A DNA stretch of 64,000 bases from Patescibacteria group bacterium (lineage in GTDB: Bacteria; Patescibacteriota; Doudnabacteria; UBA920): assembly GCA_023484515.1 (NCBI GenBank), contig JAMDAY010000007.1:50179-114178 (forward strand), given 5' to 3'. Position numbers and translations under genes: made by a program. Numbering within the stretch: position 1 is the stretch's first letter; every line of letters starts with the position of its first letter. The notes under the pieces were generated by a model that was not told where the DNA came from, made no database searches, and worked only from the letters and a program-made list of their open reading frames with translations. Positions 2,587 through 62,156 of this stretch are shown here, one piece after another.

Positions 2587-4110
2587 TTAGAATCCATGGA
2601 GGATTTCTATTTTTGCACCCAATTTTTTCAAACGATTGGCCAAATCTTCATAACCGCGGTTAATGGAATAGACGTTACGCAAAATTGACGTGCCTTTGGC
2701 GGCCAGCATGGCAATTAAAATAATGGCGGCCGGCCGCAAGGCCGGCGGGCAGATAATTTCCGCGCCGCGCAACTCAGTGGGGCCTTCAATATACACGCGG
2801 TGGGGATCGGCTAAAATTATATTAGTGCGCAGCTTGTTAAGCTCCATGTAATAAATAGCGCGGTTTTCATAAACCCAGTCATGAACAAGCGTGGTTCCGC
2901 TTGCCTGGGTGGCAATAGGCACAAAAAACGGCAAATTGTCTATGTTTAAGCCGGGAAACGGCCGGGCGTAAATTTTTTCCTCCAAGGCCATAAGCTTGCC
3001 CGGAAACGTCTTAATGTCCGCCAAATTAGTAAAGCCATTCCTGCTTTTATAACGTTTTAAAATCTTAAACTTAAAGCCCATTTTTTCCAGTTTCAGCAGC
3101 TCCAATTCCAAAAAATCCAGAGGACAGCGCTGTATGGTAATGGAAGAATTGGTAGTCGCGGCCAAAGACAAGAACATCATGGACTCTATGGGGTCTTCGC
3201 TTAAATAATAAGTTACCGGCTGGCATAAATCGGCCTTGCCGTGGACAGTCAAAGTGGTAGTGCCAATTCCTTCTATCTTCACTCCTAAAACCTGCAGAAA
3301 ATAGCACAAATCCTGCACCATATAATTGGACGAAGCAAACTTAATGACTGTTTTGCCGGGAATTTTACTGGCTGCCATAATTGCATTTTCCGTAACAGTA
3401 TCCCCGGATTCGTATAAAATAATTTCCGCGGGTTTTAAACGCGCTGCCACCACCTGATAACTGCCATGTTCGGTTTTTATGCTAATCCCAAGTTTTTCAA
3501 GGGCAAACAAGTGCGGCCGCACTGTCCTGGCGCCCAATTTGCAGCCGCCGGCCAAAGGCAATTTAAAATTTTTAGACAGATGGACCAGGGGTCCGAGCAG
3601 CATTAGCACGCTCCTGGTTTTAGCGGCGGCTTCCGCATCAATGTTCCCCAAATCTAAAGCTTGCGGAGGAACAACTTCCACGTCGTTGCCGCTCCATTTC
3701 ACTCCCGCCCCAATGCTGGACAAGACTTCCATAATGCGGAAAACTTCCTCAATTTTAGGCACATTCTTCAGCGTGGTTTTGCCCTTATTCAGCAAGCTCG
3801 CACACAGCAGGGCTACCGCTGCGTTTTTGGAAGTGTTGGTGGCTATAGTTCCAGACAGCTTATGGCCGCCCTCTATTTTAAAATTGACCGACTTGTCGGC
3901 CAAAGTAATTATTTCCTGGTTTAACGCCGCGCTGACCTTGGCCAAAGTTTCCGTAGTCAGGTTCTGCTGGCCTTTTTCCATCCTGGCTACCGCGCTTTGG
4001 GAAGTCTTTAAGGCCTTGGCAAATTCTTCCTGGGTCAAACCTTTTAATTCCCTTAATTCCGCAATAAATTTTCCTATTTTTAACTGCTCCCGGTTAATTA
4101 GTGTCTTCAT
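2587..4110 (-). CDS. murA: UDP-N-acetylglucosamine 1-carboxyvinyltransferase (MurA) with an N-terminal XRE-type HTH domain
   Basis: Residues 1-70 are a classic XRE HTH (LTQEEFAKALKTSQSAVARMEKGQ). The rest is an EPSP-synthase-fold MurA (KLSGTIATNTSKNAAVALLCASLL ...). Confidence 0.8.
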   Translation of the reverse strand: MKTLINREQLKIGKFIAELRELKGLTQEEFAKALKTSQSAVARMEKGQQNLTTETLAKVSAALNQEIITLADKSVNFKIEGGHKLSGTIATNTSKNAAVALLCASLLNKGKTTLKNVPKIEEVFRIMEVLSSIGAGVKWSGNDVEVVPPQALDLGNIDAEAAAKTRSVLMLLGPLVHLSKNFKLPLAGGCKLGARTVRPHLFALEKLGISIKTEHGSYQVVAARLKPAEIILYESGDTVTENAIMAASKIPGKTVIKFASSNYMVQDLCYFLQVLGVKIEGIGTTTLTVHGKADLCQPVTYYLSEDPIESMMFLSLAATTNSSITIQRCPLDFLELELLKLEKMGFKFKILKRYKSRNGFTNLADIKTFPGKLMALEEKIYARPFPGLNIDNLPFFVPIATQASGTTLVHDWVYENRAIYYMELNKLRTNIILADPHRVYIEGPTELRGAEIICPPALRPAAIILIAMLAAKGTSILRNVYSINRGYEDLANRLKKLGAKIEILHGF

Positions 4111-15420: not shown

Positions 15421-15438
15421 AAACCCTCCGGATTTAAC

Positions 15439-15600
15439 GGGTCTGTTGCCGAATGCCATTTTGGCTGCAATTTTAGAATTTCGGCATCTTGGCCAAAAAA
15501 TTTTTTCCCCTTAGCCTACGGCTAAACATCAAAAATTATTTTAGCCAATCTGCTCGGAATTCTGAAATTTCGCCTTAAAAGCGCATTCGGCAGCAGACCC
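15439..15600. mobile_element. 162-bp MITE-like element, copy 1 (terminal inverted repeats GGGTCTGTTGCCGAATGC / GCATTCGGCAGCAGACCC)
   Basis: Near-identical second copy at 61969-62130; internal TTAGCC-TAC-GGCTAA hairpin; TTAAC/TTAAT-like flanks. Confidence 0.7.
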
Positions 15601-15602
15601 TT

Positions 15603-15642
15603 AACGGCCGCCATTCCAATTAAAGGAATGGCGGCCGTTTTG
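15603..15642. terminator. perfect 15-bp hairpin AACGGCCGCCATTCC...GGAATGGCGGCCGTT followed by TTTTG
   Basis: Read directly, adjacent to MITE copy 1. Confidence 0.5.
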
Positions 15643-21526: not shown

Positions 21527-21751
21527 ATGGGTCAGGTGATGAATACAGGCTCTCGTCTCTTTGGAAAGGTTAAGGTGGAGATTGAGGGTATAGGATCGCA
21601 AGTCCTGGACAACGTCCAGGGTTCAACGGTCGTGGGCTGTATCAATGTAGTCGGAGCGGCTTTGAGTGGGGGACCGTTTCAGGTTACTCCGGAGGAATGG
21701 GACGTTGGTTATCGCGCTTCCGACAATTTCATCCTGGTGCGGCGCAAGTGA
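21527..21751 (+). CDS. small hypothetical protein (74 aa), apparently inserted between carB and carA
   Basis: Strong AAAGGAGTGG RBS, own terminator; composition differs from neighbours. Confidence 0.5.
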   Translation: MGQVMNTGSRLFGKVKVEIEGIGSQVLDNVQGSTVVGCINVVGAALSGGPFQVTPEEWDVGYRASDNFILVRRK

Positions 21752-21818: not shown

Positions 21819-21902
21819 TGTAGTTAGCTGATTTATCACGGTCGTTCGCGAACGACGTGATTTATCAGCTGTTATTAACAGCCCATAAATGGGCTAACTA
21901 CA
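21819..21902. mobile_element. 'TGTAGTTAGC...GCTAACTACA' palindromic element, copy A, carrying a nested 19-nt palindromic insert flanked by a TGATTTATCA duplication
   Basis: Aligned by eye to the copies at 60129-60184 and 24204-24261. Confidence 0.65.
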
Positions 21903-21935
21903 TCTTAAATCTTAAATCCTAAATCTTAAATCTTT
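21903..21935. repeat. heptamer tandem repeat (CTTAAAT)x5 abutting the carA stop codon
   Basis: Read directly; a related TTTAGGATTTAAGATTT motif occurs at the pyrE 3' end (25484-25505). Confidence 0.6.
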
Positions 21936-23101
21936 TTAAGGAACTCATCAAACAGCCACCCGGTATCCAACGGCCCCGGATGCGCTTCGGGATGGAATTG
22001 AACGGACATAAACGGCAGTTTGTTATGGATAATGCCTTCGTTGGTCTTGTCGTTGGCGTTGTAAAACCACTGTTTAAAGCCTTTGGGAATTTTTTTAATG
22101 GCGAAACCGTGGTTCTGGGTGGTTAAATAGCATTTGTTCGTGCCCTGCAAAACACACGGCTGGTTCTGGCCGCGATGCCCATACTTTAGCTTATAAGTAT
22201 CACCATCGGCTGCTAAAGCTAGAATTTGATTGCCTAAACAAATACCAAATGTCGGGATCTTTTTGGCCAGTAGATATTTTACGTTTTCTATGGTGGTGGT
22301 TGCCTGCTTGGGGTCGCCCGGGCCGTTGGAAATTAAGGCAGCGTCAAATTTCAGTTTTTTCAAATTGTAATCCCAAGGCACTACCACGACTTTTACGTTG
22401 CGCTTGACCAATTCGCGCACAATGTTTTGCTTAAGGCCGCAGTCAATAACCACAACCGTCTTTTTGCCCGAACCCGCGCGGTAAACTTTTTTCGTGGAAA
22501 CTTTGGCGGCTAAATTTTCAAGGTTGGGGTCTTTGAATTCTGTCATTGCCAGGCCGCCTTGCCCGCCGAAGCCTTGGCGGAGGAGGGGGTTTTGTCCGGC
22601 CGACCGAAGATACGCCGAAGCCTTGGCGAAGGTGGACGAAGCAATCTTCTCCTGTGATAGATTGCTTCGCTCGGATGCACTCGCTCGCAATGACACATTA
22701 TTAAATTCCATTTTCCCCAACATGACTCCATGGGTCCGCAGCTTTTGCGTAATTTCCCTGGTATCCTTAATCTCCAAAGCAGGAATGTTTTGCTTTTTCA
22801 GCCAGTCTGACAATGTCTGTTTGCTTGAATGATGCGAAGGCGTATCTATATAGCTTGATACCACTAACCCCGAAACTTGAATTTTACCAGATTCCCAATA
22901 TTTTTTCTCCGGCACGCCATAATTGCCCTGCAGGGGATAGGTTAAAACCAAAATCTGCCCGGCATAAGAGGGATCGGTCAAGCTTTCCGGATACCCGACC
23001 ATGCCCGTGGCAAATACCACTTCGCCCGCCATGGGCTTTTCTTTGCCAAAACTTTTACCAACGTATTCGCTGCCGTCTTTTAAAATAAGGTTGCCGATCA
23101 T
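21926..23101 (-). CDS. carA: carbamoyl-phosphate synthase small subunit; the linker carries an in-frame palindromic-element insertion
   Basis: CarA N-domain plus class-I GATase (GICLGNQ, HPE) with about 45 extra low-complexity residues in the linker, encoded by the 22541-22695 element. Confidence 0.9.
   Translation of the reverse strand: MIGNLILKDGSEYVGKSFGKEKPMAGEVVFATGMVGYPESLTDPSYAGQILVLTYPLQGNYGVPEKKYWESGKIQVSGLVVSSYIDTPSHHSSKQTLSDWLKKQNIPALEIKDTREITQKLRTHGVMLGKMEFNNVSLRASASERSNLSQEKIASSTFAKASAYLRSAGQNPLLRQGFGGQGGLAMTEFKDPNLENLAAKVSTKKVYRAGSGKKTVVVIDCGLKQNIVRELVKRNVKVVVVPWDYNLKKLKFDAALISNGPGDPKQATTTIENVKYLLAKKIPTFGICLGNQILALAADGDTYKLKYGHRGQNQPCVLQGTNKCYLTTQNHGFAIKKIPKGFKQWFYNANDKTNEGIIHNKLPFMSVQFHPEAHPGPLDTGWLFDEFLKKI
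22541..22695. mobile_element. 'TGTCATTGC...GCAATGACA' palindromic element inserted in-frame in carA
   Basis: Terminal inverted repeats, internal CGAAGCAATC...GATTGCTTCG hairpin and GCCGAAGCCTTGGCG direct repeats; homologous copy in rsmI. Confidence 0.7.
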
Positions 23102-23365: not shown

Positions 23366-24655
23366 CTAATTCGTATTGTTATATACTCTGCCTCTTACAA
23401 TAGCACACTTTACTTTTCCTGGGAAGACCCTGCCGGTAAAGGGCGACCAGCCGCATTTGGTTTTTAAATTCTCCTTTTTTACAAGCCATTTTTGCGATAA
23501 ATCCAAAATTGTCAGCGACCCCGCAAAGCCCTCCTTTATTTCCCCACACCGTTCCGTGCGAAAGCTGTTTACAAAACGGCCCGGATTAAAACTGCAAATC
23601 CTGGCAATGTCTTGCGGCTCAAAATTACATTCCTTAAGCAGCCACGCGGCAAAAGCCCCGTAAGTATCCAAGTGAGGGACTCCTGACATGCCTTTTAATT
23701 TTTCTTCTGCGGTATGCGGGGCATGGTCAGTTGCCAAAAAATCTATGTCGCCTTTTCTTAAGGCCTCAATCATGGCCAAACGGTCTTCCGGTGCCCTAAG
23801 TGGCGGGTTCATTTGCAGCCACTTGCGGTTTTCTTCTGTCAGCATCGTGTCGTCAAAATACAAATGGTGAGGCGCAACTTCGCAAGCCACGTCTAAGCCT
23901 GCTTTTTTGGCACTGATAATTTTAGCCAGGCCTTCCTTAACGGAATAATGGCATAGTTTCCCGTGCAAGCGGTATTTTTCAATAAGATACAAAGCAAAAT
24001 CCGTGGCCTTAAGTTCGGCCTCGGCCGGGCGGCGCTGTTCGTGAGTCGGCTGGTTTTTGTTGGCTTCCAAAATTTCCGGATCTTCGCAATGGAAACTTAC
24101 ATATTGGCCTTCATATCGTTTAATCGCTTCTTCCAATTCCTGCTGCGAATGGAAAAACAAATCGCCGATTGACGGGCCCATAAAGGCTTTGTAAGGCGGT
24201 TGTGTTGTAATGTGCCCATTTATGGGCTGCATTGATGGCCGATAAATCGGCGCACTACAACTAAATGGCTTCGTCTTCGGTCCAATCCCCCCATACAGCG
24301 TTACGTCCACCAACGCTTTTTCGGCAAGCGCCAATTTTTCCCCGTAAGATTTTTCGTCCACCGGCGCCACGGGGTTATTGGGCATATCGCAAATATGCGT
24401 TACCCCGCCGTTTATGGCCGCCTCGGACGCGCTTAAAAAGTCTTCTTTGTAATTTTGCAAGCCCGAGACATCTTCCCGCGCATGCACGTGCAAATCTACA
24501 AACCCGGGAAATACCAGACAATCTTCGCCGCATACAATATCGGCGCTGCCCGTAGCCTCGCCAACACTTTTGATCAATCCCGTCTCCTGATTAATCTCCA
24601 CGCGCCCGTAAATTTCGCTGTCGTGGTTTATTATTTTGCCTTCAATTGATAACAT
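23366..24655 (-). CDS. pyrC: dihydroorotase
   Basis: DLHVHAR metal-binding motif and FHCED, DHAPH motifs (HxH, FHCE); 429 aa. Confidence 0.9.
   Translation of the reverse strand: MLSIEGKIINHDSEIYGRVEINQETGLIKSVGEATGSADIVCGEDCLVFPGFVDLHVHAREDVSGLQNYKEDFLSASEAAINGGVTHICDMPNNPVAPVDEKSYGEKLALAEKALVDVTLYGGIGPKTKPFSCSAPIYRPSMQPINGHITTQPPYKAFMGPSIGDLFFHSQQELEEAIKRYEGQYVSFHCEDPEILEANKNQPTHEQRRPAEAELKATDFALYLIEKYRLHGKLCHYSVKEGLAKIISAKKAGLDVACEVAPHHLYFDDTMLTEENRKWLQMNPPLRAPEDRLAMIEALRKGDIDFLATDHAPHTAEEKLKGMSGVPHLDTYGAFAAWLLKECNFEPQDIARICSFNPGRFVNSFRTERCGEIKEGFAGSLTILDLSQKWLVKKENLKTKCGWSPFTGRVFPGKVKCAIVRGRVYNNTN
24204..24261. mobile_element. divergent 'GTTGTAGTG...CACTACAAC' palindromic element lying in-frame inside pyrC
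   Basis: Same order of TIR / GATTTATC hairpin / GCCCATAAATGGGC hairpin as the 60129-60184 copy; encodes FSCSAPIYRPSMQPINGHI. Confidence 0.5.
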
Positions 24656-25470: not shown

Positions 25471-25491
25471 AAAAAAATTTAGATATAAAAT

Positions 25492-26124
25492 TTAGGATTT
25501 AAGATTTTTTGCTTCTAAATATTTTTTACCATGGCCAACTGCCGTATTAATGGGAATTCCCGAATCGCACAGCGGGCAACGGCCTTCTTCATACATAGGC
25601 ACCTCTAAAATATCCAGAGGGAAAAAAGGGGTGTTGAAATATTGGCTGTTTACTTCCCTGGTATTTTTATTTACCATCACGCACACGCCCGCAACTTGGC
25701 CGCCAATAGACCTTACAGCATCCGTGGTTTTTTTTGCGCTGCCCCCGGTCTGGGTTAAATCTTCCACCACCAAAATTTTTTTCCCGGCAACATACTTGTC
25801 GTATCCTCTGGTAAACTGCATCCCGCCTTCCGGAGTTTTTTCCGCATACACGCCAAAAATTTCCGTGCCTTTAATTTGGGAAAGATGAAACGCCACCCAT
25901 TGCGATAAAATAACCCCTCCCAAAACCGGACCCACTATTGTATCTATATCCAGATCTTTCACCGCTTCTGCCATAAGGCGGCAAACCTCGGAAGTCTCCT
26001 TGGTATGGGGGTATAAGGCATCTTTATTAATATACGTATCAAAATGCTTGCCTGAAGTTCCGACAAAATGGCTGCCTGCAATAACTGCACCGACTTGTTT
26101 TAAAATATCCAATACTTGACTCAT
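25492..26124 (-). CDS. pyrE: orotate phosphoribosyltransferase-like type I PRTase
   Basis: PRPP-binding motif ILVVEDLTQTGGS; pathway context. Confidence 0.75.
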   Translation of the reverse strand: MSQVLDILKQVGAVIAGSHFVGTSGKHFDTYINKDALYPHTKETSEVCRLMAEAVKDLDIDTIVGPVLGGVILSQWVAFHLSQIKGTEIFGVYAEKTPEGGMQFTRGYDKYVAGKKILVVEDLTQTGGSAKKTTDAVRSIGGQVAGVCVMVNKNTREVNSQYFNTPFFPLDILEVPMYEEGRCPLCDSGIPINTAVGHGKKYLEAKNLKS

Positions 26125-33653: not shown

Positions 33654-35039
33654 GTGACCACCAAAACCGCATCCAAAAAAAAGAACGGCTTCCGCAAATT
33701 CTGGCGCTTGGGCATTGAAGAATACAATACCCAAAACTTTGACATTGGCCCGGACGGGGAACTGATAGTCCGCGAAGGCAACTACCAGTACAATATTTTT
33801 GACATTGTAAAAAAATACGGGACTTCCACGGAGATTGTTTTTCCCACGGTCATTGAAAACCGCGTGCGGGACCTGATTGAAACCTTTAACGCTTACATAA
33901 AAGTACTGGGCTACCGGGGCAAGTTCCACTACCATTACGCCATGAAAGTCAACCAGAACAAGGAATTCGTGCTGCCGGCCGTGGCCGAAGGGGCAAATTT
34001 GGACGTGGCCAGCGCCAACGAATTATTCTTGGTCAAACGGATGATAGAACAGGACAAGTTTAACAACAAAATCCGCGTCATTTGCAACGGGCCCAAGACT
34101 GAAAAATATATTGGCCTGATAGAAGAGCTTAAGAGCAAGGGCCTGATTGTCGTTCCCATTATTGAAGACCATGTAGAGCTGGAGCGCTTGAAAAAATTCA
34201 AGGGCGAGGTGGGGGTGCGCGTAAATTTGGACGTAAAAGTCAACAGCCATTGGGACAAAAAATTCAACCGTTACGGGTTCACCGAGGCCGAACTGCTGCG
34301 GCTGGGCAAAATTAAGAACCTGTCCACGTTGCATTACCATATTTCCAGCCAGATTGAACGGATGGAAGGCATGCTTAAGCCGCTCAAGCGGGCGCTGGAG
34401 CTTTACGCCAAGCTGCGGGAAAAGAATCCCGGCCTGGACACCTTGGACATGGGCGGGGGAGCGGGCGTGCCTTACGAAAAACGCAAGCATTTTTATTCCG
34501 CGAAAAATTTAATCCATCACCTGGTTAAGACTGCCAAAAATACCTGCGACCGGCTGCAGGTTAGGCATCCCAACTTGATAGTGGAATGGGGCAGGTACGT
34601 GGCCGCGCCGGCGCAAATTACCATCTACAAAATACTGGCGGAAAAAACCGTGGAAAACAAAGGTAATAACAAGTGGTATGTAATTGACGGCAGCTTTATG
34701 AACGATTTGATTGACACCTGGGCCATACACCAAAAGTGGCACGTGGTGCCGGTTAATTACATGAACACGCGCAAGCTGGAAAAGGTCTGGCTGGCAGGCG
34801 CCTCCTGCGACAGCGACGACAAATATACTTCCGGCGGCGGTTACATTTTGTTGCCCAGGCTAAGCGAGACCGACGAGCTGTATGTCGCCTTTTTGGACAC
34901 CGGCGCTTACCAGGATTCCCTGGCCTCGCACCACTGCCTGCTGTCCAGCCCGGCCAAACTTATAGCCCAAAACGGGGAAATAAAAATTGCCCGCCGCCGC
35001 GAAGTCCCGGAAGAGGTGGGAAAACTTTTTGGCTGGTAA
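33654..35039 (+). CDS. speA: arginine decarboxylase-like PLP-dependent (Orn/DAP/Arg decarboxylase fold III) enzyme
   Basis: HYHYAMKVN (PLP lysine region) and C-terminal beta-sandwich; 461 aa. Confidence 0.7.
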   Translation: MTTKTASKKKNGFRKFWRLGIEEYNTQNFDIGPDGELIVREGNYQYNIFDIVKKYGTSTEIVFPTVIENRVRDLIETFNAYIKVLGYRGKFHYHYAMKVNQNKEFVLPAVAEGANLDVASANELFLVKRMIEQDKFNNKIRVICNGPKTEKYIGLIEELKSKGLIVVPIIEDHVELERLKKFKGEVGVRVNLDVKVNSHWDKKFNRYGFTEAELLRLGKIKNLSTLHYHISSQIERMEGMLKPLKRALELYAKLREKNPGLDTLDMGGGAGVPYEKRKHFYSAKNLIHHLVKTAKNTCDRLQVRHPNLIVEWGRYVAAPAQITIYKILAEKTVENKGNNKWYVIDGSFMNDLIDTWAIHQKWHVVPVNYMNTRKLEKVWLAGASCDSDDKYTSGGGYILLPRLSETDELYVAFLDTGAYQDSLASHHCLLSSPAKLIAQNGEIKIARRREVPEEVGKLFGW

Positions 35040-35743
35040 TTAACAATCTCTTAATATCATATGCGCAAAGGCTGTCTTTAACCCGGCAACGCCACCATGG
35101 GCGGGGGAGCGGGCGTGCCTTACGAAAAACGCAAGCATTTTTATTCCGCGAAAAATTTAATCCATCACCTGGTTAAGACTGCCAAAAATACCTGCGACCG
35201 GCTGCAGGTTAGGCATCCCAACTTGATAGTGGAATGGGGCAGGTACGTGGCCGCGCCGGCGCAAATTACCATCTACAAAATACTGGCGGAAAAAACCGTG
35301 GAAAACAAAGGTAATAACAAGTGGTATGTAATTGACGGCAGCTTTATGAACGATTTGATTGACACCTGGGCCATACACCAAAAGTGGCACGTGGTGCCGG
35401 TTAATTACATGAACACGCGCAAGCTGGAAAAGGTCTGGCTGGCAGGCGCCTCCTGCGACAGCGACGACAAATATACTTCCGGCGGCGGTTACATTTTGTT
35501 GCCCAGGCTAAGCGAGACCGACGAGCTGTATGTCGCCTTTTTGGACACCGGCGCTTACCAGGATTCCCTGGCCTCGCACCACTGCCTGCTGTCCAGCCCG
35601 GCCAAACTTATAGCCCAAAACGGGGAAATAAAAATTGCCCGCCGCCGCGAAGTCCCGGAAGAGGTGGGAAAACTTTTTGGCTGGTAATTAACAATCTCTT
35701 AATATCATATGCGCAAAGGCTGTCTTTAACCCGGCAACGCCAC
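34448..35743 (+). repeat. perfect tandem direct duplication, 2 x 648 bp (34448-35095 and 35096-35743), covering the speA 3' third plus the 3' UTR up to the terminator loop
   Basis: ORF-track proteins 33654..35039 (C-terminal 196 aa) and 35097..35687 are identical; the DNA is identical by eye, including the 56-nt UTR. Confidence 0.85.
35097..35687 (+). pseudogene. duplicated 3' fragment of speA (promoterless 196-aa C-terminal copy)
   Basis: Second repeat unit; starts at the internal Met of speA. Confidence 0.6.
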
Positions 35744-57791: not shown

Positions 57792-59141
57792 TTGAATAAT
57801 CTTTCTCATCAGCCAGGCATAATCCGTCCAGCTTATTCCGCAAAAATCAAAAATTTATTTATAATTGAAATTTGCGTCCCAATGCCTTACCTTCTTGCTC
57901 TCACCTTCCTCCTGACTCCCGCTTATGCCGTAAAATTCCAACTTTTGGGCTTTCCGACCAACCTTCTTATGGCCTGGGTGGTTTTGGTTTGGCTGACTTT
58001 TGCCATTTGGTTGATTGTAAAAAAACAGGTTTTACCGTTTTGGAGCTCCATAGCCATGTTTGATAAAAAATTGTTAGCGCTGGTTGGTTTGTTCTTCTTA
58101 GCGGGATTAGTTTCGTTATTCGCTCATGGCTTTGATCGCGCAAAGCTTGGCCAGTTTATTGTCTTATTCCTGCAGCCGATTTCCTTATTTTTTATTGGCC
58201 GATATTTAATTTCACAATTCCCTAAAACCCGTAACTTGTTAATAACTACATGTTATTTGTTGCTGGGCGCAATGGGCATATATGCCGTAATCCAATATTT
58301 TACGCTGGTCGGCCTGCCGCCAGCCTGGTGGGGCAACAGCGAAGAGCCAAAACGGGCCTTGGGATTTTTTGGCCACCCGAATTTTTACGCGTTATTTTCC
58401 ACCCCTCTACTTGCGTTCCTGATTCCTGATGTAGTTGCCCGATTTATCGGGCTCCCAAGCTCCATAAATGGAGCAACTACAAAATCCAGATGGATATTTA
58501 TTACGGCTTGGATTATTGGTGCCACCGGTTTGTTTCTCTCCCTCTCCCGCGCCGGCTGGCTAGGCCTTGGCATGGCAATTCTGGCTTATTTGATTTTTGC
58601 CGCAAATGCAAAAATCCGGCGCCTGGTTACCGTTATAGTTATTGTTATGGTAACTGTTGTTACTACCGTTTCCAACCTTCGCTATCGCGTTGTTTTGCCG
58701 TTTTATGGGGAAAAATCCGCAGTTTCGCGGCTGTCGCTTTGGGAAACAGGCTGGAAAGGTATTAAAGAATCGCCGCTTACCGGTTTGGGCTTAACCGGCT
58801 TTGCGCGACAGTGGCAGATATTAAACACCGATCCCGGCCTGGCCAGCGCTTCTCACAATTTCCCCCACAATATCTTTTTGGATTTATGGGTGGAAACGGG
58901 TCTGCTCGGGCTGATCAGTTTTGTCGGATTAATTTTTATCTACATCTATCGCGGCCTGCGCAATGCCAATCGCCAGCCTGCCTCGCCTGACGCGAGTCAA
59001 GGCAGGTCGTTAAACGTTAATTGTTACGGATTATCCGTTGCCCTTTTCCTCATCGCCTTAATATTCGCCGGCCTCGTGGACAACCCCTACTTCAAAAACG
59101 ATCTTGCCATGGTTTTCTGGTTAGTGCTTTCCCTGGTATGA
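57792..59141 (+). CDS. O-antigen ligase/polymerase (Wzy_C) family membrane protein
   Basis: Polytopic protein with a large periplasmic loop and RAGWLGLGMAILAYL region typical of Wzy_C. Confidence 0.6.
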   Translation: MNNLSHQPGIIRPAYSAKIKNLFIIEICVPMPYLLALTFLLTPAYAVKFQLLGFPTNLLMAWVVLVWLTFAIWLIVKKQVLPFWSSIAMFDKKLLALVGLFFLAGLVSLFAHGFDRAKLGQFIVLFLQPISLFFIGRYLISQFPKTRNLLITTCYLLLGAMGIYAVIQYFTLVGLPPAWWGNSEEPKRALGFFGHPNFYALFSTPLLAFLIPDVVARFIGLPSSINGATTKSRWIFITAWIIGATGLFLSLSRAGWLGLGMAILAYLIFAANAKIRRLVTVIVIVMVTVVTTVSNLRYRVVLPFYGEKSAVSRLSLWETGWKGIKESPLTGLGLTGFARQWQILNTDPGLASASHNFPHNIFLDLWVETGLLGLISFVGLIFIYIYRGLRNANRQPASPDASQGRSLNVNCYGLSVALFLIALIFAGLVDNPYFKNDLAMVFWLVLSLV

Positions 59142-59927: not shown

Positions 59928-60128
59928 TCCTCCTTCTCCTTTCGCGTATCCCCGCCGGGTGTTTTTGTTTTAACGGAGAAGAATAGCAAAAAATAGATAT
60001 ATTGACAATTGAATTCCACTTATAATATAATATATTTAGCCTTAAGTAAGGCTTTTTTATTTCTTTTGATTAGATTTGTCAGAATAGGTTGACACTTGTT
60101 CGCTGACAAATCGACACGCTACAATAGT

Positions 60129-60184
60129 TGTAGTTAGCCCATTTATGGGCTGTCCTTTAACAGCTGATAAATCAGCTAACTACA
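60129..60184. mobile_element. 'TGTAGTTAGC...GCTAACTACA' palindromic element, canonical 56-bp copy B
   Basis: TIRs plus two perfect sub-hairpins (GCCCATTTATGGGC and AGCTGATAAATCAGCT). Confidence 0.7.
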
Positions 60185-60293
60185 ATTACTGCACCCTCTC
60201 TGTCACCCGAAGGGTGACATCTCCCCTAAGGGGGAGGGTTCCGCAGTTTCCGCGATCCGTGTTCATCCGTAATCTATCCGTATTAATCATCCA

Positions 60294-61079
60294 ATGGATT
60301 ATAAGGTTACTGAACAATTACAATCTCTAGGCCTACAAAAACATGAATCCCAAGTCTATTTGGCGCTTTTGGAACTGGGGCAGGGGACTGTTAGCGACAT
60401 CAGTAAGACAGCCCAACTAAACAGAACAACTGGATACGATATATTGGAAAGATTGTCTCTTTACGGGCTGGCCAGCAGAACTACGCGAGACAATAAAAAA
60501 ACGATGTACATTGCCGAGCCGCCGCACCGCCTTAGGCAGTATTTGGAAAACAAAAAACACCAGGCAGAAAGGCGCCTGGCGGACGTCCATGATTTAATCC
60601 CCGATTTGCAGAACCTTTACAAAAAAGAAAACAAACCGGTTATTAAATTCTTTGAAGGCCGGGAAGGCATTAAAAATATTTATTGGCATACGCTGGAAGC
60701 GAAAAGCATAATCTATTCCGTTCTGGATTTAAGCGTGTATTTACCGGAGTATGACCTGTTTGGCAAGGACTATATCCGCCAACGGTCAAAACTCGGCGTA
60801 AAAGAAAAAGCCCTGGTCTTAAAAAACAAAGAAGGTGAGGAGTTTTATGACACTACCTATAAAAATAATCCATTATACCAAAAATTTACCGAATACCGCT
60901 GGCTGGAAAAACAATTTCCTTTTACGCCTGCGGCTGAAGTCAACATTTATGACGATATGGTAATGGGCGTACTGGCCAAGCCAGGCGAAAACGCGGCGTT
61001 TGAAATAAAAAATCCTTCCTTTGCTAATTCTTTAAAAATTATTTTTGAACTGGCCTGGGAACAGGCAAAATCATTATGA
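60294..61079 (+). CDS. TrmB-family HTH transcriptional regulator, paralog 3
   Basis: LQSLGLQKHESQVYLALLELG N-terminal motif. Confidence 0.7.
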   Translation: MDYKVTEQLQSLGLQKHESQVYLALLELGQGTVSDISKTAQLNRTTGYDILERLSLYGLASRTTRDNKKTMYIAEPPHRLRQYLENKKHQAERRLADVHDLIPDLQNLYKKENKPVIKFFEGREGIKNIYWHTLEAKSIIYSVLDLSVYLPEYDLFGKDYIRQRSKLGVKEKALVLKNKEGEEFYDTTYKNNPLYQKFTEYRWLEKQFPFTPAAEVNIYDDMVMGVLAKPGENAAFEIKNPSFANSLKIIFELAWEQAKSL

Positions 61080-61093
61080 CAAAAGGAGGCATT

Positions 61094-61967
61094 ATGCATA
61101 TTCCGATAAAAAAACTTAAAAACGGGTTTGAGATGCCGGGGTTTGGTATGGGAACTTATAAAATGGGAGAAGAAAACCGGGATCAAGACGATATAAACAC
61201 CATTAAAGCCGCAATTGATTTAGGCATTACCCATATTGACACCGCAGAGGCCTATGCTGACGGCAGTGCCGAAGAAATAGTCGGCAAGGCCATAAAAGGC
61301 CGCGTGCGTTCAGGCCTGTTCATTGTTTCCAAGGTCCAGGAAAGCCATTTAAATTACCAAGAAACCAAAACCGCTTTGCACCGCGTTTAAAAAGATTAGA
61401 AACCGGCTATCTTGACTTATACCTATTGCATCGCTATCCAGGCAGCGACAGCAAGCTGAAAGAATGCTTAAAAGCACTGGCAGAATTAAAAGACGAAAAC
61501 CTCATAAAAAATATTGGAATCAGCAACTTTAACCTGGAACATACCAAGCAGGCCTGCGAATGGTCCAAATACCCGGTGGTTGCTACCCAAGTCCACTACA
61601 ACTTGCAATTCCGCGAACCTGAAAAAACCGATTTGCTGGATTTTTGCCAAAATAATGACATAATGTTAATCGCCTGGCGGCCTGTAAATAAAGCATATCA
61701 AGCAAAAAATAAAATCAACTTCACCAAACCGGGTATTCCCGTTTTGGATGAAATTAGCAAAGAATATAAAAAGCCCCCTCCCAGGTTGCCATCAACTGGC
61801 TTATTTCGCAACCGAATGTGGTGACTTTAGTTAAAACCTCTAATCTTAATCATTTACGGGAAAATCTGGGAGCTATTGGCTGGCAAATGAGCGCTGGCGA
61901 TATAGAAAAAATACGAAAGGGATTTCCAAACCAGCAGCCTGTTTCAGATACCGTGCCTTTAGCTTAA
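61094..61967 (+). pseudogene. aldo-keto reductase gene with two -1 frameshifts, both in homopolymers (near 61383-61388 in a T/A run; near 61787-61792 in a C5 run)
   Basis: Three frames each carry consecutive AKR segments, including TALHRV|LKRLETGYLDLYLLH and EYKKP|PAQVAINWLISQPNVV...; AAGGAGG RBS. Confidence 0.7.
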
Positions 61968-61968
61968 T

Positions 61969-62130
61969 GGGTCTGTTGCCGAATGCTATTTTGGCTGCAA
62001 TTTTAGAATTTCGGCATCTTGGCCAAAAAATTTTTTCTTCTTAGCCTGCGGCTAAACATCAAAAATTATTTTGACCAAGCTGCTCGGAATTCTGAAATTT
62101 CGCCTTAAAAGCGCATTCGGCAGCAGACCC
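61969..62130. mobile_element. 162-bp MITE-like element, copy 2
   Basis: About 95% identical by eye to 15439-15600; starts 1 nt after the AKR stop codon within the GCTTAATGGG context. Confidence 0.7.
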
Positions 62131-62156
62131 TTAACGCACTATTTACTTTTATTATC

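What the first reader, a model, noticed from the sequence alone, without database searches (positions are those of the whole stretch)
60129..60184. Second small palindromic element family (TGTAGTTAGC…GCTAACTACA) with two conserved sub-hairpins
The 56-bp element TGTAGTTAGC-CCATTTATGGGC-TGTCCTTTAAC-AGCTGATAAATCAGCT-AACTACA is a composite palindrome. It has 10-bp terminal inverted repeats and two perfect internal palindromes (GCCCATTTATGGGC and AGCTGATAAATCAGCT). The same architecture recurs at 21819-21902, in inverted orientation downstream of the small inserted gene between carB and carA. A diverged copy lies at 24204-24261 inside pyrC. This is a MITE/REP-like family distinct from the carA/rsmI family and from the 162-bp element.
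Basis: seen in the sequence. Interest (0 to 1): 0.62.

Follow-up and report, generated by a model that had tools for sequence, protein, structure and literature searches.

The report
REP doublets of a CPR bacterium
The 56-bp composite palindrome is one copy of a small mobile-DNA family of a well-known kind, two inverted "GTAG + hairpin" REP units of the sort moved by a RAYT transposase, found here in a Patescibacteria (CPR) genome where half of the copies sit in frame inside protein-coding genes.

Summary

Each element is a head-to-head dimer of two GTAG-tagged REP units: GTAG, a 3-nt linker, then a 14-nt hairpin NNNNATTTATNNNN. This is the REPIN architecture.

In related Candidatus Doudnabacteria MAGs, a 137-aa HuH/Y1 transposase gene sits exactly between the two halves. 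Its best NCBIfam match is REP-associated tyrosine transposase, and its only significant PDB match is E. coli TnpA-REP (4ER8). Four further homologues are bordered by the same kind of half-sites.

The family is multi-copy in Doudnabacteria, in other Patescibacteria, and in groundwater MAGs labelled "Deltaproteobacteria". It matches no Rfam family and is essentially absent from viral contigs.

Copy 3 is an 18-19-aa in-frame insertion in PyrC; six of seven aligned homologues lack any insert, and the seventh carries an unrelated one. Copy 4 lies in frame in an O-antigen-ligase-like ORF.

The structured-RNA alternative is not supported.

No RAYT gene lies in the window, so a cognate enzyme in this genome is inferred.

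Verdict: new member of a known kind, moderate interest.

The parts
60129..60184 (+). Doublet copy 1 (56 bp, intergenic, 109 nt upstream of the TrmB-like ORF 60294-61079): T-GTAG-TTA-GCCCATTTATGGGC-spacer-GCTGATAAATCAGC-TAA-CTAC-A
   Evidence: ssDNA MFE -16.3 kcal/mol, z -7.2.
60130..60150 (+). Left REP unit of copy 1 (GTAG head, TTA linker, C-type hairpin GCCCATTTATGGGC)
60163..60183 (-). Right REP unit of copy 1 (GTAG head, TTA linker, G-type hairpin GCTGATTTATCAGC, read on the minus strand)
60102..60122 (-). Degenerate solo REP half (GTAGCGTGTCGATTTGTCAGC), 7 nt upstream of copy 1. It looks like the remnant of an older CGT-type copy.
   Evidence: 2 mismatches to the half-site consensus
21819..21902 (-). 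Doublet copy 2 (84 bp). It lies between the terminator of small ORF 21527-21751 (+) and the end of carA (21926-23101, -). Same TTA-type as copy 1, in the opposite orientation.
   Evidence: ssDNA fold -23.8 / -24.1 kcal/mol.
21839..21867 (.). 29-bp nested piece inside the G-type hairpin of copy 2: palindrome CGGTCGTTCGCGAACGACG plus a second copy of TGATTTATCA
   Evidence: A longer relative with the same ends sits at the same spot of the hairpin in L048 and L082.
24204..24261 (+). Doublet copy 3 (core 24207-24258: GTAATGT-GCCCATTTATGGGC-TGCATTGATG-GCCGATAAATCGGC-GCACTAC). It is read through in frame on the minus strand inside pyrC and encodes CSAPIYRPSMQPINGHIT.
   Evidence: An 18-19-aa insertion relative to PDB 7uof and to homologues P0002, P0003, P0005, P0006, P0008 and P0023.
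23366..24655 (-). Host gene of copy 3: dihydroorotase (PyrC), 429 aa. Still an intact ORF.
58430..58481 (+).
   Evidence: Its left half is identical to the REP beside the RAYT gene in L119. It falls in a length-variable loop of the homologues.

Best explanation
The element is a head-to-head dimer of two GTAG-tagged REP units, a REPIN-type doublet. It is a non-autonomous partner of a REP-associated tyrosine transposase (RAYT, a HuH/Y1 enzyme).

Each half consists of a 5' GTAG head, a 3-nt linker and a 14-nt hairpin with an ATTTAT core. One half carries GCCCAT..ATGGGC. The other carries GCYGAT..ATCRGC.

The full-length form, seen in Doudnabacteria relatives, has a 137-aa RAYT gene in place of the 8-20-nt spacer.

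By analogy with E. coli TnpA-REP and IS200/IS605 TnpA, the enzyme would do the following (inferred, not shown):
- Bind the REP hairpins in single-stranded DNA, for example at the replication fork.
- Read the GTAG head.
- Cut and rejoin the strand, copying or moving the doublet without a target duplication.

Copies that land in frame in tolerant surface loops survive as short peptide insertions, as in PyrC and the O-antigen-ligase-like protein.

Shown here: the architecture, the recurrence, the RAYT-between-halves arrangement in relatives, and the in-frame insertion.

Inferred: the enzymology, and the presence of a cognate RAYT in this particular genome.
For: 1. GTAG plus linker plus hairpin half-sites occur 6 times in the window against 0.03 expected, and all are arranged as inverted doublets.

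2. The hairpin pair recurs in at least 116 stretches of GTDB genomes, with a consensus of tGTAG-nnn-GCCCATTTATGGGC-(8-20 nt)-GCCGATAAATCGGC-nnn-CTACa.

3. In L116 (1430-1910) and L081 (6207-6686), a 137-aa ORF lies exactly between the C-type and G-type halves.

4. That ORF looks like a RAYT:
- Pfam Y1_Tnp is above its cut-off.
- The best NCBIfam model is REP_Tyr_transpos at E 1e-18 to 1e-21, against IS200 at 1e-3 to 1e-5.
- The only significant PDB hit is TnpA-REP 4er8, with the HuH and Y motifs aligned.

5. Homologues at 54-78% identity (L119, L120, L121, L123) are all bordered by GTAG-nnn-NNNNATTYATNNNN halves.

6. In the nzgw383 genome, doublet spacers (GATCTTAGAC, GACCTAAGGAC) match the first ~8 and last ~3 nt of the master copy's interior (GATCTAAG...GGGAC). 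This is what an internal-deletion derivative would look like.

7. The linker triplets covary between the two halves (CGT/ACG, TTA/TAA, TTT/AGA). There are 20, 20 and 12 two-sided changes at the three positions. The covariation score is 0.179, against 0.095 in shuffles and 0.035-0.061 when slid.

8. No target-site duplication is visible. That fits HuH-type rather than DDE-type mobility.

9. The defining features in the literature match. [quoted passage not shown] GTAG REPs mostly form HH dimers, and intragenic dimers encode 20-30 aa (PMC3733652).
Against: - No Y1 transposase gene lies in the 64-kb window (motif scan; tblastn). I could not reach the rest of the source contig. The cognate enzyme in this genome is therefore inferred.
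- The RAYT candidates score 67-74 bits, below NCBIfam's curated cut-off of 80 for the equivalog.
- Copy numbers seen per MAG are in the range of a few to ~16.
- Two of the four window copies are intragenic, which is atypical for "extragenic" palindromes, though it has been documented before.
- No biochemical evidence exists for this RAYT clade.
Confidence: 0.85

Rival explanations
1. It is a deletion derivative (MITE/PATE) of a still-autonomous mini insertion sequence of the IS200/IS605 type. The roughly 480-bp unit made of the transposase gene plus its two ends would itself be the multi-copy transposon, rather than a domesticated single-copy RAYT.
For: - The gene-plus-ends unit is compact and looks like an IS.
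- Spacers look like internal deletions of it.
- Pfam places the protein in Y1_Tnp, "Transposase IS200 like".
- The same hairpins occur in several phyla, which suggests horizontal spread.
Against: - NCBIfam favours REP_Tyr_transpos over IS200 by about 15 orders of magnitude in E-value.
- The ends are inverted and carry GTAG heads. IS200/IS605 ends are non-inverted subterminal hairpins (established knowledge of that family).
- Only one RAYT copy was seen per MAG among the loci held.
- 90%-identity protein clusters map to 1-4 contigs each, with one at 11.
- None was found on viral contigs.
Confidence: 0.08
2. It is a structured non-coding RNA or a cis-regulatory RNA element. The candidate shapes are a three-way junction or a long hairpin, acting as a terminator, a stabiliser or a riboswitch-like motif.
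For: - Predicted folds are strong.
- Pairing is maintained by compensatory changes.
- Some linker pairs are T.G on one strand: 33 cases, against 17 on the other strand.
- Copy 2 lies just after a terminator, and copy 1 lies in a 5' region.
Against: - No Rfam family reaches its threshold. Only generic hairpin hits to miRNA models appear, far below gathering scores.
- Copies occur in both orientations, inside ORFs, and antisense to pyrC.
- A transposase gene can replace the spacer.
- The wobble asymmetry is only about 2:1 among copies that are not independent.
Confidence: 0.03
3. The two palindromes are operators for dimeric DNA-binding proteins, for example the adjacent TrmB-like regulator. The repeats would be regulatory sites rather than mobile DNA.
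For: - Copy 1 lies 109 nt upstream of a TrmB-like gene.
- The element creates a promoter-like TTAACA-18-TACAAT site at 60157-60186.
- Each sub-hairpin is a perfect dyad.
Against: - The other two TrmB-like paralogues in the window have no copy.
- Two of the four copies are inside coding sequences.
- The same sequence recurs in unrelated contexts and phyla, and around a transposase gene.
Confidence: 0.02

Closest known systems
GTAG-tagged REPs, REP doublets and REPINs with their RAYTs. Examples: E. coli REP/BIME with TnpA-REP (YafM, PDB 4ER8); Pseudomonas fluorescens SBW25 REPINs. Sources: Nunvar 2010 PMC2817692; Bertels & Rainey 2011 PMC3116915; Di Nocera 2013 PMC3733652.
   Same: - A 5' GTAG head next to a short hairpin.
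- Two units in inverted, head-to-head orientation that can pair into one long hairpin.
- A Y1/HuH transposase gene flanked by the two inverted units.
- No target duplication.
- Compensatory changes that preserve pairing.
   Different: - The host is a Patescibacteria/CPR genome. I found no report of REP/RAYT there in the searchable library.
- The hairpins are AT-cored (ATTTAT) rather than GC-rich.
- The RAYT is only 137 aa, against 165 aa for the 4er8 chain.
- The two halves are always of different hairpin type (0 homotypic against 97 heterotypic).
- The same hairpin sequences occur in MAGs assigned to several phyla.
- Copy number is modest.
Intragenic REP dimers of Opitutus terrae and Thioalkalivibrio, and Rickettsia palindromic elements (RPE)
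   Same: Small palindromic repeats inserted in frame in housekeeping genes. They add about 17-30 residues while the ORF stays intact (PMC3733652).
   Different: - RPEs are longer and are unrelated in sequence.
- The Rickettsia elements classed as REPs in that paper are CGTC-tagged and have no dedicated transposase.
- Here the elements are GTAG-tagged and linked to a RAYT.
IS200/IS605 insertion sequences and their palindrome-associated derivatives (PATEs)
   Same: - The transposase fold and motifs are homologous (HuH plus a catalytic Tyr).
- The substrates are hairpins in single-stranded DNA.
- There is no target duplication.
- Non-autonomous derivatives arise by loss of the gene.
   Different: - IS200/IS605 ends are not inverted and lack the GTAG head.
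- The protein here matches the RAYT model far better than the IS200 model.
Classical MITEs (derivatives of DDE transposons)
   Same: Short, non-coding, with inverted termini, multi-copy, and derived from a longer gene-bearing element.
   Different: There are no target-site duplications. The associated enzyme is a Y1 HuH nuclease, not a DDE transposase.

Membership tests
GTAG-type REP / REPIN-RAYT system | Unit made of a GT(A/G)G head directly 5' of a short (imperfect) palindrome | tested here: met
   Six exact generic half-sites in the window (0.03 expected), plus one GTAA variant and one interrupted site. 215 half-sites in the loci.
GTAG-type REP / REPIN-RAYT system | Two units in inverted orientation, separated by a short spacer, able to form one hairpin (REPIN / HH dimer) | tested here: met
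   All four window copies are HH doublets of 50-54 nt from GTAG to CTAC (80 nt in copy 2 with its nested insert). The long hairpin is the ssDNA MFE for copy 1 and for L116:3340.
GTAG-type REP / REPIN-RAYT system | [quoted passage not shown] | tested here: met
   Met in related genomes: L116, L081, L119, L120, L121 and L123. Not testable for the source genome itself, because no RAYT lies in the window and the rest of the contig was not retrievable.
GTAG-type REP / REPIN-RAYT system | The transposase belongs to the RAYT clade of Y1 HuH enzymes rather than to IS200 TnpA | tested here: inconclusive
   The best NCBIfam model is REP_Tyr_transpos (E 8.5e-21 and 1.3e-18), but at 74.4 and 67.3 bits it is below the curated cut-off of 80. 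IS200 scores only E 2e-3 and 1e-5. The PDB 4er8 TnpA-REP hit has E 1.8e-7, with the HuH and Tyr motifs aligned.
GTAG-type REP / REPIN-RAYT system | High copy number of REPs with a single-copy RAYT per genome | tested here: inconclusive
   Four doublets in 64 kb here. One RAYT per MAG among the loci held. No whole-genome counts were possible.
GTAG-type REP / REPIN-RAYT system | Extragenic location | tested here: not met
   Two of the four window doublets, and about 10 of about 80 in the loci, lie in frame within long ORFs. Intragenic GTAG REP dimers are a documented exception (PMC3733652).
MITE (DDE-type) | Terminal inverted repeats bounded by a target-site duplication | tested here: not met
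   Inverted termini are present, but no direct repeat flanks any of the four copies.
IS200/IS605 PATE | Non-inverted subterminal hairpins at left and right ends; insertion 3' of a fixed tetra- or pentanucleotide | tested here: not met
   The ends are inverted. Flanks share only T at -1 and A at +1, with no fixed tetranucleotide.
Known structured RNA family (Rfam 15) | Match to a curated covariance model at its gathering score | tested here: not met
   Only tRNAs pass the gathering scores. The permissive scan gives sub-threshold generic hairpin hits (mir-1537 at 27.7 bits against 63) and nothing at the other copies.
Rickettsia palindromic elements | Sequence membership in an RPE family | not tested
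   The resemblance is in behaviour only (in-frame insertion). No RPE sequences were compared.

The most novel reading that the evidence does not exclude
This REP-RAYT system behaves differently from the textbook, vertically inherited gammaproteobacterial ones, in three ways.
- The same 14-nt hairpins occur in MAGs assigned to several phyla, implying horizontal spread.
- Its doublets repeatedly occupy exactly the same codon positions in diverged orthologues.
- The element stays about 92% identical while its flanks have fallen to about 60%.

This would mean site-directed (re)insertion, seamless excision, or RAYT-driven homogenisation acting inside essential coding sequences of ultra-small CPR genomes. 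It would be a mechanism that writes a stereotyped 17-19-aa peptide cassette into housekeeping enzymes.
Probability: 0.2. Interest if true: 0.6.

Novelty: new member of a known kind. Interest (0 to 1): 0.4.

Why it matters
REP/REPIN-RAYT systems have been studied almost only in Proteobacteria. There they are treated as long-lived, vertically inherited residents of intergenic DNA.

Finding a clean, minimal version in Patescibacteria extends the host range. The unit is a 137-aa RAYT nested exactly between its two REPs, with about 54-bp gene-less doublets scattered around it. These genomes are about 1 Mb and have very little spare intergenic space.

That lack of space may explain why many copies survive only as in-frame loop insertions in enzymes. 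Examples here are PyrC and proteins resembling, by eye, ArgRS, ATP synthase gamma and malic enzyme.

For annotation, it explains odd 17-19-residue insertions (CSVPIYG...PINRHAT and similar) in CPR proteins. It may also explain assembly breaks near these repeats.

For mechanism, the compact enzyme and short defined substrates would suit biochemical study of RAYT specificity.

Tried and rejected
- **Rfam.** I searched at gathering thresholds over the whole window and at permissive E-values around all copies. Nothing relevant turned up.
- **Viral contigs.** The element pattern gave 1 hit, about the chance level. The RAYT gave none. Phage carriage is therefore not supported.
- **Reaching the rest of the source contig to look for the RAYT.** Exact-protein look-ups returned only short Logan contigs, or nothing.
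- **RAYTs found by motif scan in "Deltaproteobacteria" loci L077 and L014.** L077 is flanked by a different REP (GGTAGCCGCAGGCTTTAGCCTGCG), and no half-site of this family lies next to L014's gene (downstream flank read; its 5' part is cut by the locus end). They are not the cognate enzymes of this family.
- **The idea that Deltaproteobacteria copies sit at the ends of a large IS.** Alignment of flanks shows only composite palindromic units of about 100 nt.
- **Target-site motif.** Flanks show only T at -1 and A at +1.
- **O-antigen-ligase ORF as a second clean "empty-site" case.** The copy falls in a loop whose length varies among homologues. The window is only about 7-9 residues longer than the nearest ones, so insertion is plausible but not demonstrated.
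- **Strand-specific wobble as evidence for RNA or one-strand function.** The ratio is 33 to 17, which is too weak given that the copies are related.
- **A covariance-model build.** I judged it unnecessary once mismatch-tolerant and generic half-site scans had recovered all copies.

Full report

The first sub-hairpin, GCCCATWWATGGGC, occurs three times in the window, at 21881, 24214 and 60137. Dinucleotide-preserving shuffles give 0.10 expected, and none of 100 reaches three.

The 10-nt terminus TGTAGTTAGC is present on both strands at both intergenic copies.

The copy at 21819-21902 is the reverse complement of copy 1. Its GAT hairpin is interrupted by a 29-bp piece at 21839-21867, made of the palindrome CGGTCGTTCGCGAACGACG followed by a second TGATTTATCA.

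The copy at 24204-24261 has diverged termini. Its second hairpin keeps pairing through a compensatory T-A to C-G change.

All copies fold strongly as single strands, with z-scores from -3.9 to -8.6.

**2.

I searched with the half-site consensus GTAG-N3-GCYSATTTATSRGC, allowing three mismatches. This gives eight sites against 0.51 expected.

A generic scan asked for GTAG, three bases, a 4-bp stem, an ATWHAT core and then the complementary 4 bases. It gives six sites against 0.03 expected.

The two scans add:
- A fourth doublet at 58430-58481: T-GTAGTTG-CCCGATTTATCGGG-CTCCCAAG-CTCCATAAATGGAG-CAACTAC-A.
- A decayed solo half at 60102-60122, 7 nt upstream of copy 1.

The window therefore holds four inverted doublets and one remnant.

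**3. Anatomy**

Each element consists of two units in inverted orientation. Each unit is a GTAG head, a 3-nt linker and a 14-nt hairpin around ATTTAT.

The "two internal palindromes" are the two unit hairpins.

The two hairpins of a doublet always differ: GCCCAT..ATGGGC on one side, GCYGAT..ATCRGC on the other. In 941 kb of window plus fetched loci there are 97 heterotypic and 0 homotypic doublets. The loci were selected with a heterotypic pattern, so this count is biased.

The difference lowers the predicted stability of the long hairpin. It is -22.0 kcal/mol, against -30.7 kcal/mol for a hypothetical homotypic copy. The two local hairpins remain intact.

None of the four copies has a target-site duplication.

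**4. Recurrence elsewhere**

I scanned one genome per GTDB species for GCCCATWWATGGGC-N(8-20)-GATWWATC. My estimate of chance hits is about 14. A few hits are clearly unrelated, such as Acinetobacter terminators and Yersinia.

The rest share one consensus: tGTAG-nnn-GCCCATTTATGGGC-(8-20 nt)-GCCGATAAATCGGC-nnn-CTACa.

They are multi-copy in:
- several Candidatus Doudnabacteria MAGs;
- MAGs labelled Saccharibacteria and "Patescibacteria group" (single copies also occur in Daviesbacteria- and Kerfeldbacteria-labelled MAGs);
- a set of groundwater "Deltaproteobacteria" MAGs.

A related one-headed variant occurs in a Chloroflexia MAG.

The linker triplets covary between the two halves (CGT/ACG, TTA/TAA, TTT/AGA). 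The covariation score is 0.179, against 0.095 in shuffles and at most 0.061 when partners are slid.

**5. The link to a transposase**

A motif scan of all loci for HuH...Y ORFs found five candidates.

In two Doudnabacteria MAGs, a 137-aa ORF lies exactly between a C-type half and a G-type half. In L116 (1430-1910) the arrangement is GTAGCGT-GCCCATTTATGGGC, 16 nt, ATG ... TAA, 7 nt, GCCGATAAATCGGC-ACGCTAC. L081 (6207-6686) has the same layout.

The protein has these matches:
- Pfam Y1_Tnp, above its cut-off.
- NCBIfam REP_Tyr_transpos as the best model, at E 8.5e-21 and 1.3e-18. The scores of 74 and 67 bits are below the curated cut-off of 80. The IS200 model reaches only E 2e-3 and 1e-5.
- E. 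coli TnpA-REP (4er8) as the only significant PDB hit. HIHAIL aligns with HMHCIW and YIINNP with YIYINP.

A database search finds more than 1,000 homologues. JGI names several of them "REP element-mobilizing transposase RayT".

I fetched four homologues at 54-78% identity. They come from a MAG labelled Saccharibacteria, a Doudnabacteria MAG, WOR-3, and a 173-kb contig. All are bordered by GTAG-nnn-NNNNATTYATNNNN halves whose hairpin letters differ between lineages.

The half beside the gene in L119, GTAGTTGCCCGATTTATCGGG, is identical to the left half of window copy 4.

In the nzgw383 genome, doublet spacers (GATCTTAGAC, GACCTAAGGAC) equal the first ~8 and last ~3 nt of the interior of the gene-bearing copy. 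The doublets therefore look like internal-deletion derivatives.

There is no RAYT in the window itself.

**6. Copies inside genes**

The window's PyrC is 429 aa. Its nearest homologues, at 73% identity, are 410 aa.

The alignment shows a single 19-residue block, CSAPIYRPSMQPINGHIT(T), absent from six of seven homologues. It sits exactly where the element lies. The ORF remains open.

Copy 4 is read through as VVARFIGLPSSINGATT in an O-antigen-ligase-like ORF. It falls in a loop whose length varies among homologues, so the insertion is plausible but not cleanly demonstrated.

In the fetched loci, about 10 of about 80 doublets lie in frame in long ORFs. All of these are in Doudnabacteria-type MAGs and none in the Deltaproteobacteria MAGs.

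Judged by eye from their sequences, the hosts are proteins like ATP synthase gamma, ArgRS, a pfkB kinase, malic enzyme, a GT2 glycosyltransferase, RimK and PyrC. The encoded peptides are stereotyped: CSVPIYG...PINRHAT or ...ADKSARY.

**7. Two unresolved points**

First, the PyrC of a Doudnabacteria MAG (L043) is only 54% identical to the window's PyrC. It carries a 54-nt doublet at exactly the same codon boundary, but in the opposite orientation. Closer homologues lack any insert.

Second, two RimK-like orthologues carry the doublet at the same position. The element is 92% identical between them, while 408 nt of flanks are 60% identical.

The candidate explanations are independent same-site insertion, ancient insertion with seamless losses, in-situ inversion of a quasi-palindrome, or homogenisation. 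I cannot tell which applies.

**8. Comparison with what is known**

[quoted passage not shown] The REPs have a GT(A/G)G head followed by a palindrome. Inverted doublets are the predominant cluster type in some species (PMC2817692).

Di Nocera et al. describe GTAG-tagged REPs in Proteobacteria, Cyanobacteria, Chloroflexi and the PVC group. They report HH dimers as the predominant type in most families, and intragenic dimers encoding 20-30 residues (PMC3733652).

The present family meets the structural criteria. It differs in these respects:
- the host lineage;
- AT-cored hairpins;
- a very small RAYT;
- strictly heterotypic halves;
- modest copy number.

I found no paper in the searchable library that links REP/RAYT to Patescibacteria or CPR. 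That is absence from that library only.

**9. Rival readings**

- **A still-autonomous IS200-like mini-IS with MITE-type derivatives.** It cannot be excluded without whole-genome copy counts. The inverted GTAG-headed ends and the profile preference argue against it.
- **A structured RNA.** Disfavoured by the Rfam results, by mixed orientations and antisense coding copies, and by the fact that a gene can replace the spacer.
- **An operator role for the neighbouring TrmB-like gene.** Disfavoured because the paralogous genes lack the element, and because copies sit in unrelated contexts. Copy 1 does create a promoter-like TTAACA-18-TACAAT, which remains a consensus match only.

**10. Verdict**

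It is best described as REPIN-type doublets of GTAG-tagged REPs belonging to a RAYT system of Patescibacteria. Two of the four local copies persist as in-frame peptide insertions.

It is a new member of a known kind. Interest is moderate and rests on three things: the CPR host, the frequent coding-sequence residence, and the unexplained same-site and high-conservation pattern.

Noticed in passing
window 22540-22705 (inside carA ORF 21926-23101, minus strand): carA carries an in-frame insertion of roughly 55 aa (…SLRASASERSNLSQEK…QGFGGQGGLAMT…). The DNA has inverted ends TGTCATTGC…GCAATGACA. It is a different repeat family, with no GTAG half-sites.
   Followed up: partly
protein P0004 (PyrC homologue), alignment A1 columns ~135-165: A PyrC homologue at 68% identity has an unrelated insertion of about 30 aa at exactly the loop where window copy 3 sits. 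That loop tolerates or attracts insertions.
   Followed up: no
L043 (Doudnabacteria JBBREH010000041), PyrC gene on the minus strand: This PyrC is 54% identical to the window's. It has a doublet at the identical codon boundary but in the opposite orientation. It also has a second doublet further downstream (RSVPIYRPSPDAHKWARY).
   Followed up: partly
window 58975-59015 (same ORF as copy 4): There is a second small palindromic in-frame segment (CCTGCCTCGCCTGACGCGAGTCAAGGCAGG) in the O-antigen-ligase-like ORF. Homologue P0241 has a different insert at that place, and the other homologues have none.
   Followed up: no
window 21839-21867; L048:1796-1859; L082:2923-2987; L028 ~3150-3190: The G-type hairpin is a recurrent site for nested small palindromes. 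The window has a short GTCGTTCGC|GCGAACGAC version. A MAG labelled Saccharibacteria has a ~65-nt version with the same ends. L028 has another hairpin at the same spot. In each case GATAAATC is duplicated.
   Followed up: partly
window 60002-60062: A perfect TTGACA-18-TATAAT promoter consensus is followed within 7 nt by a terminator-like hairpin (AGCCTTAAGTAAGGCT plus a T-run). This would be a very short transcription unit, or a coincidence.
   Followed up: no
window 60203-60237; L116:1911-1929: Two further small hairpins, GTCACCCGAAGGGTGAC and CTCCCCTAAGGGGGAG, lie directly after copy 1. A similar CTCCCCCCTCAAGGGGGAG follows the RAYT unit in L116. This may be another co-travelling repeat.
   Followed up: no
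window 34448-34747 and 35096-35395; 15434-15606 and 61964-62136: There is a 300-nt perfect direct repeat 648 nt apart, and a 173-nt repeat at 95% identity 46.5 kb apart. Neither contains GTAG half-sites.
   Followed up: no
window 21903-21936 and 25471-25507: A run of CTTAAAT-like heptamers lies immediately beside copy 2. It has an inverted counterpart 3.5 kb away, at the other end of the carA-pyrC-pyrF block.
   Followed up: no
L036, L077, L045, L049, L053, L086, L100, L068 (groundwater MAGs, mostly labelled Deltaproteobacteria): There the doublet is nested in a composite palindromic unit of about 100 nt (TATAGTG.ACGA…AAATAAGTAG…[doublet]…AAATTTAT.TCGCTG.CTATA), repeated on many contigs. A copy with the same flanks sits in a MAG labelled Ignavibacteriae from the same study (NC_groundwater series), which may reflect cross-binning.
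   Followed up: partly
L055:3700-4550 (Chloroflexia MAG CAVSXS01): A 156-aa RAYT-like gene is flanked by directly repeated units CGTAGGGGCCGGTTTACCGCGCCCA.CAGCCCATTTATGGGCGCG and by tandem CGTAGGGGCCGATGTATTTTCA repeats. This is a one-headed relative of the family and has many copies in that genome.
   Followed up: partly
L077:5680-6290 (MAG labelled Deltaproteobacteria, JACRNJ01): A second RAYT scores 83 bits, above the NCBIfam cut-off. It is flanked by a different REP (GGTAGCCGCAGGCTTTAGCCTGCG). That genome therefore hosts at least two REP families.
   Followed up: partly
window pyrC (23366-24655) and homologue list: The window's PyrC is 58-64% identical to many proteins from non-CPR sources, for example Bryocella elongata (Acidobacteria) at 62%. 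It is only 54% identical to the Doudnabacteria PyrC of L043. The gene may have been acquired horizontally.
   Followed up: no
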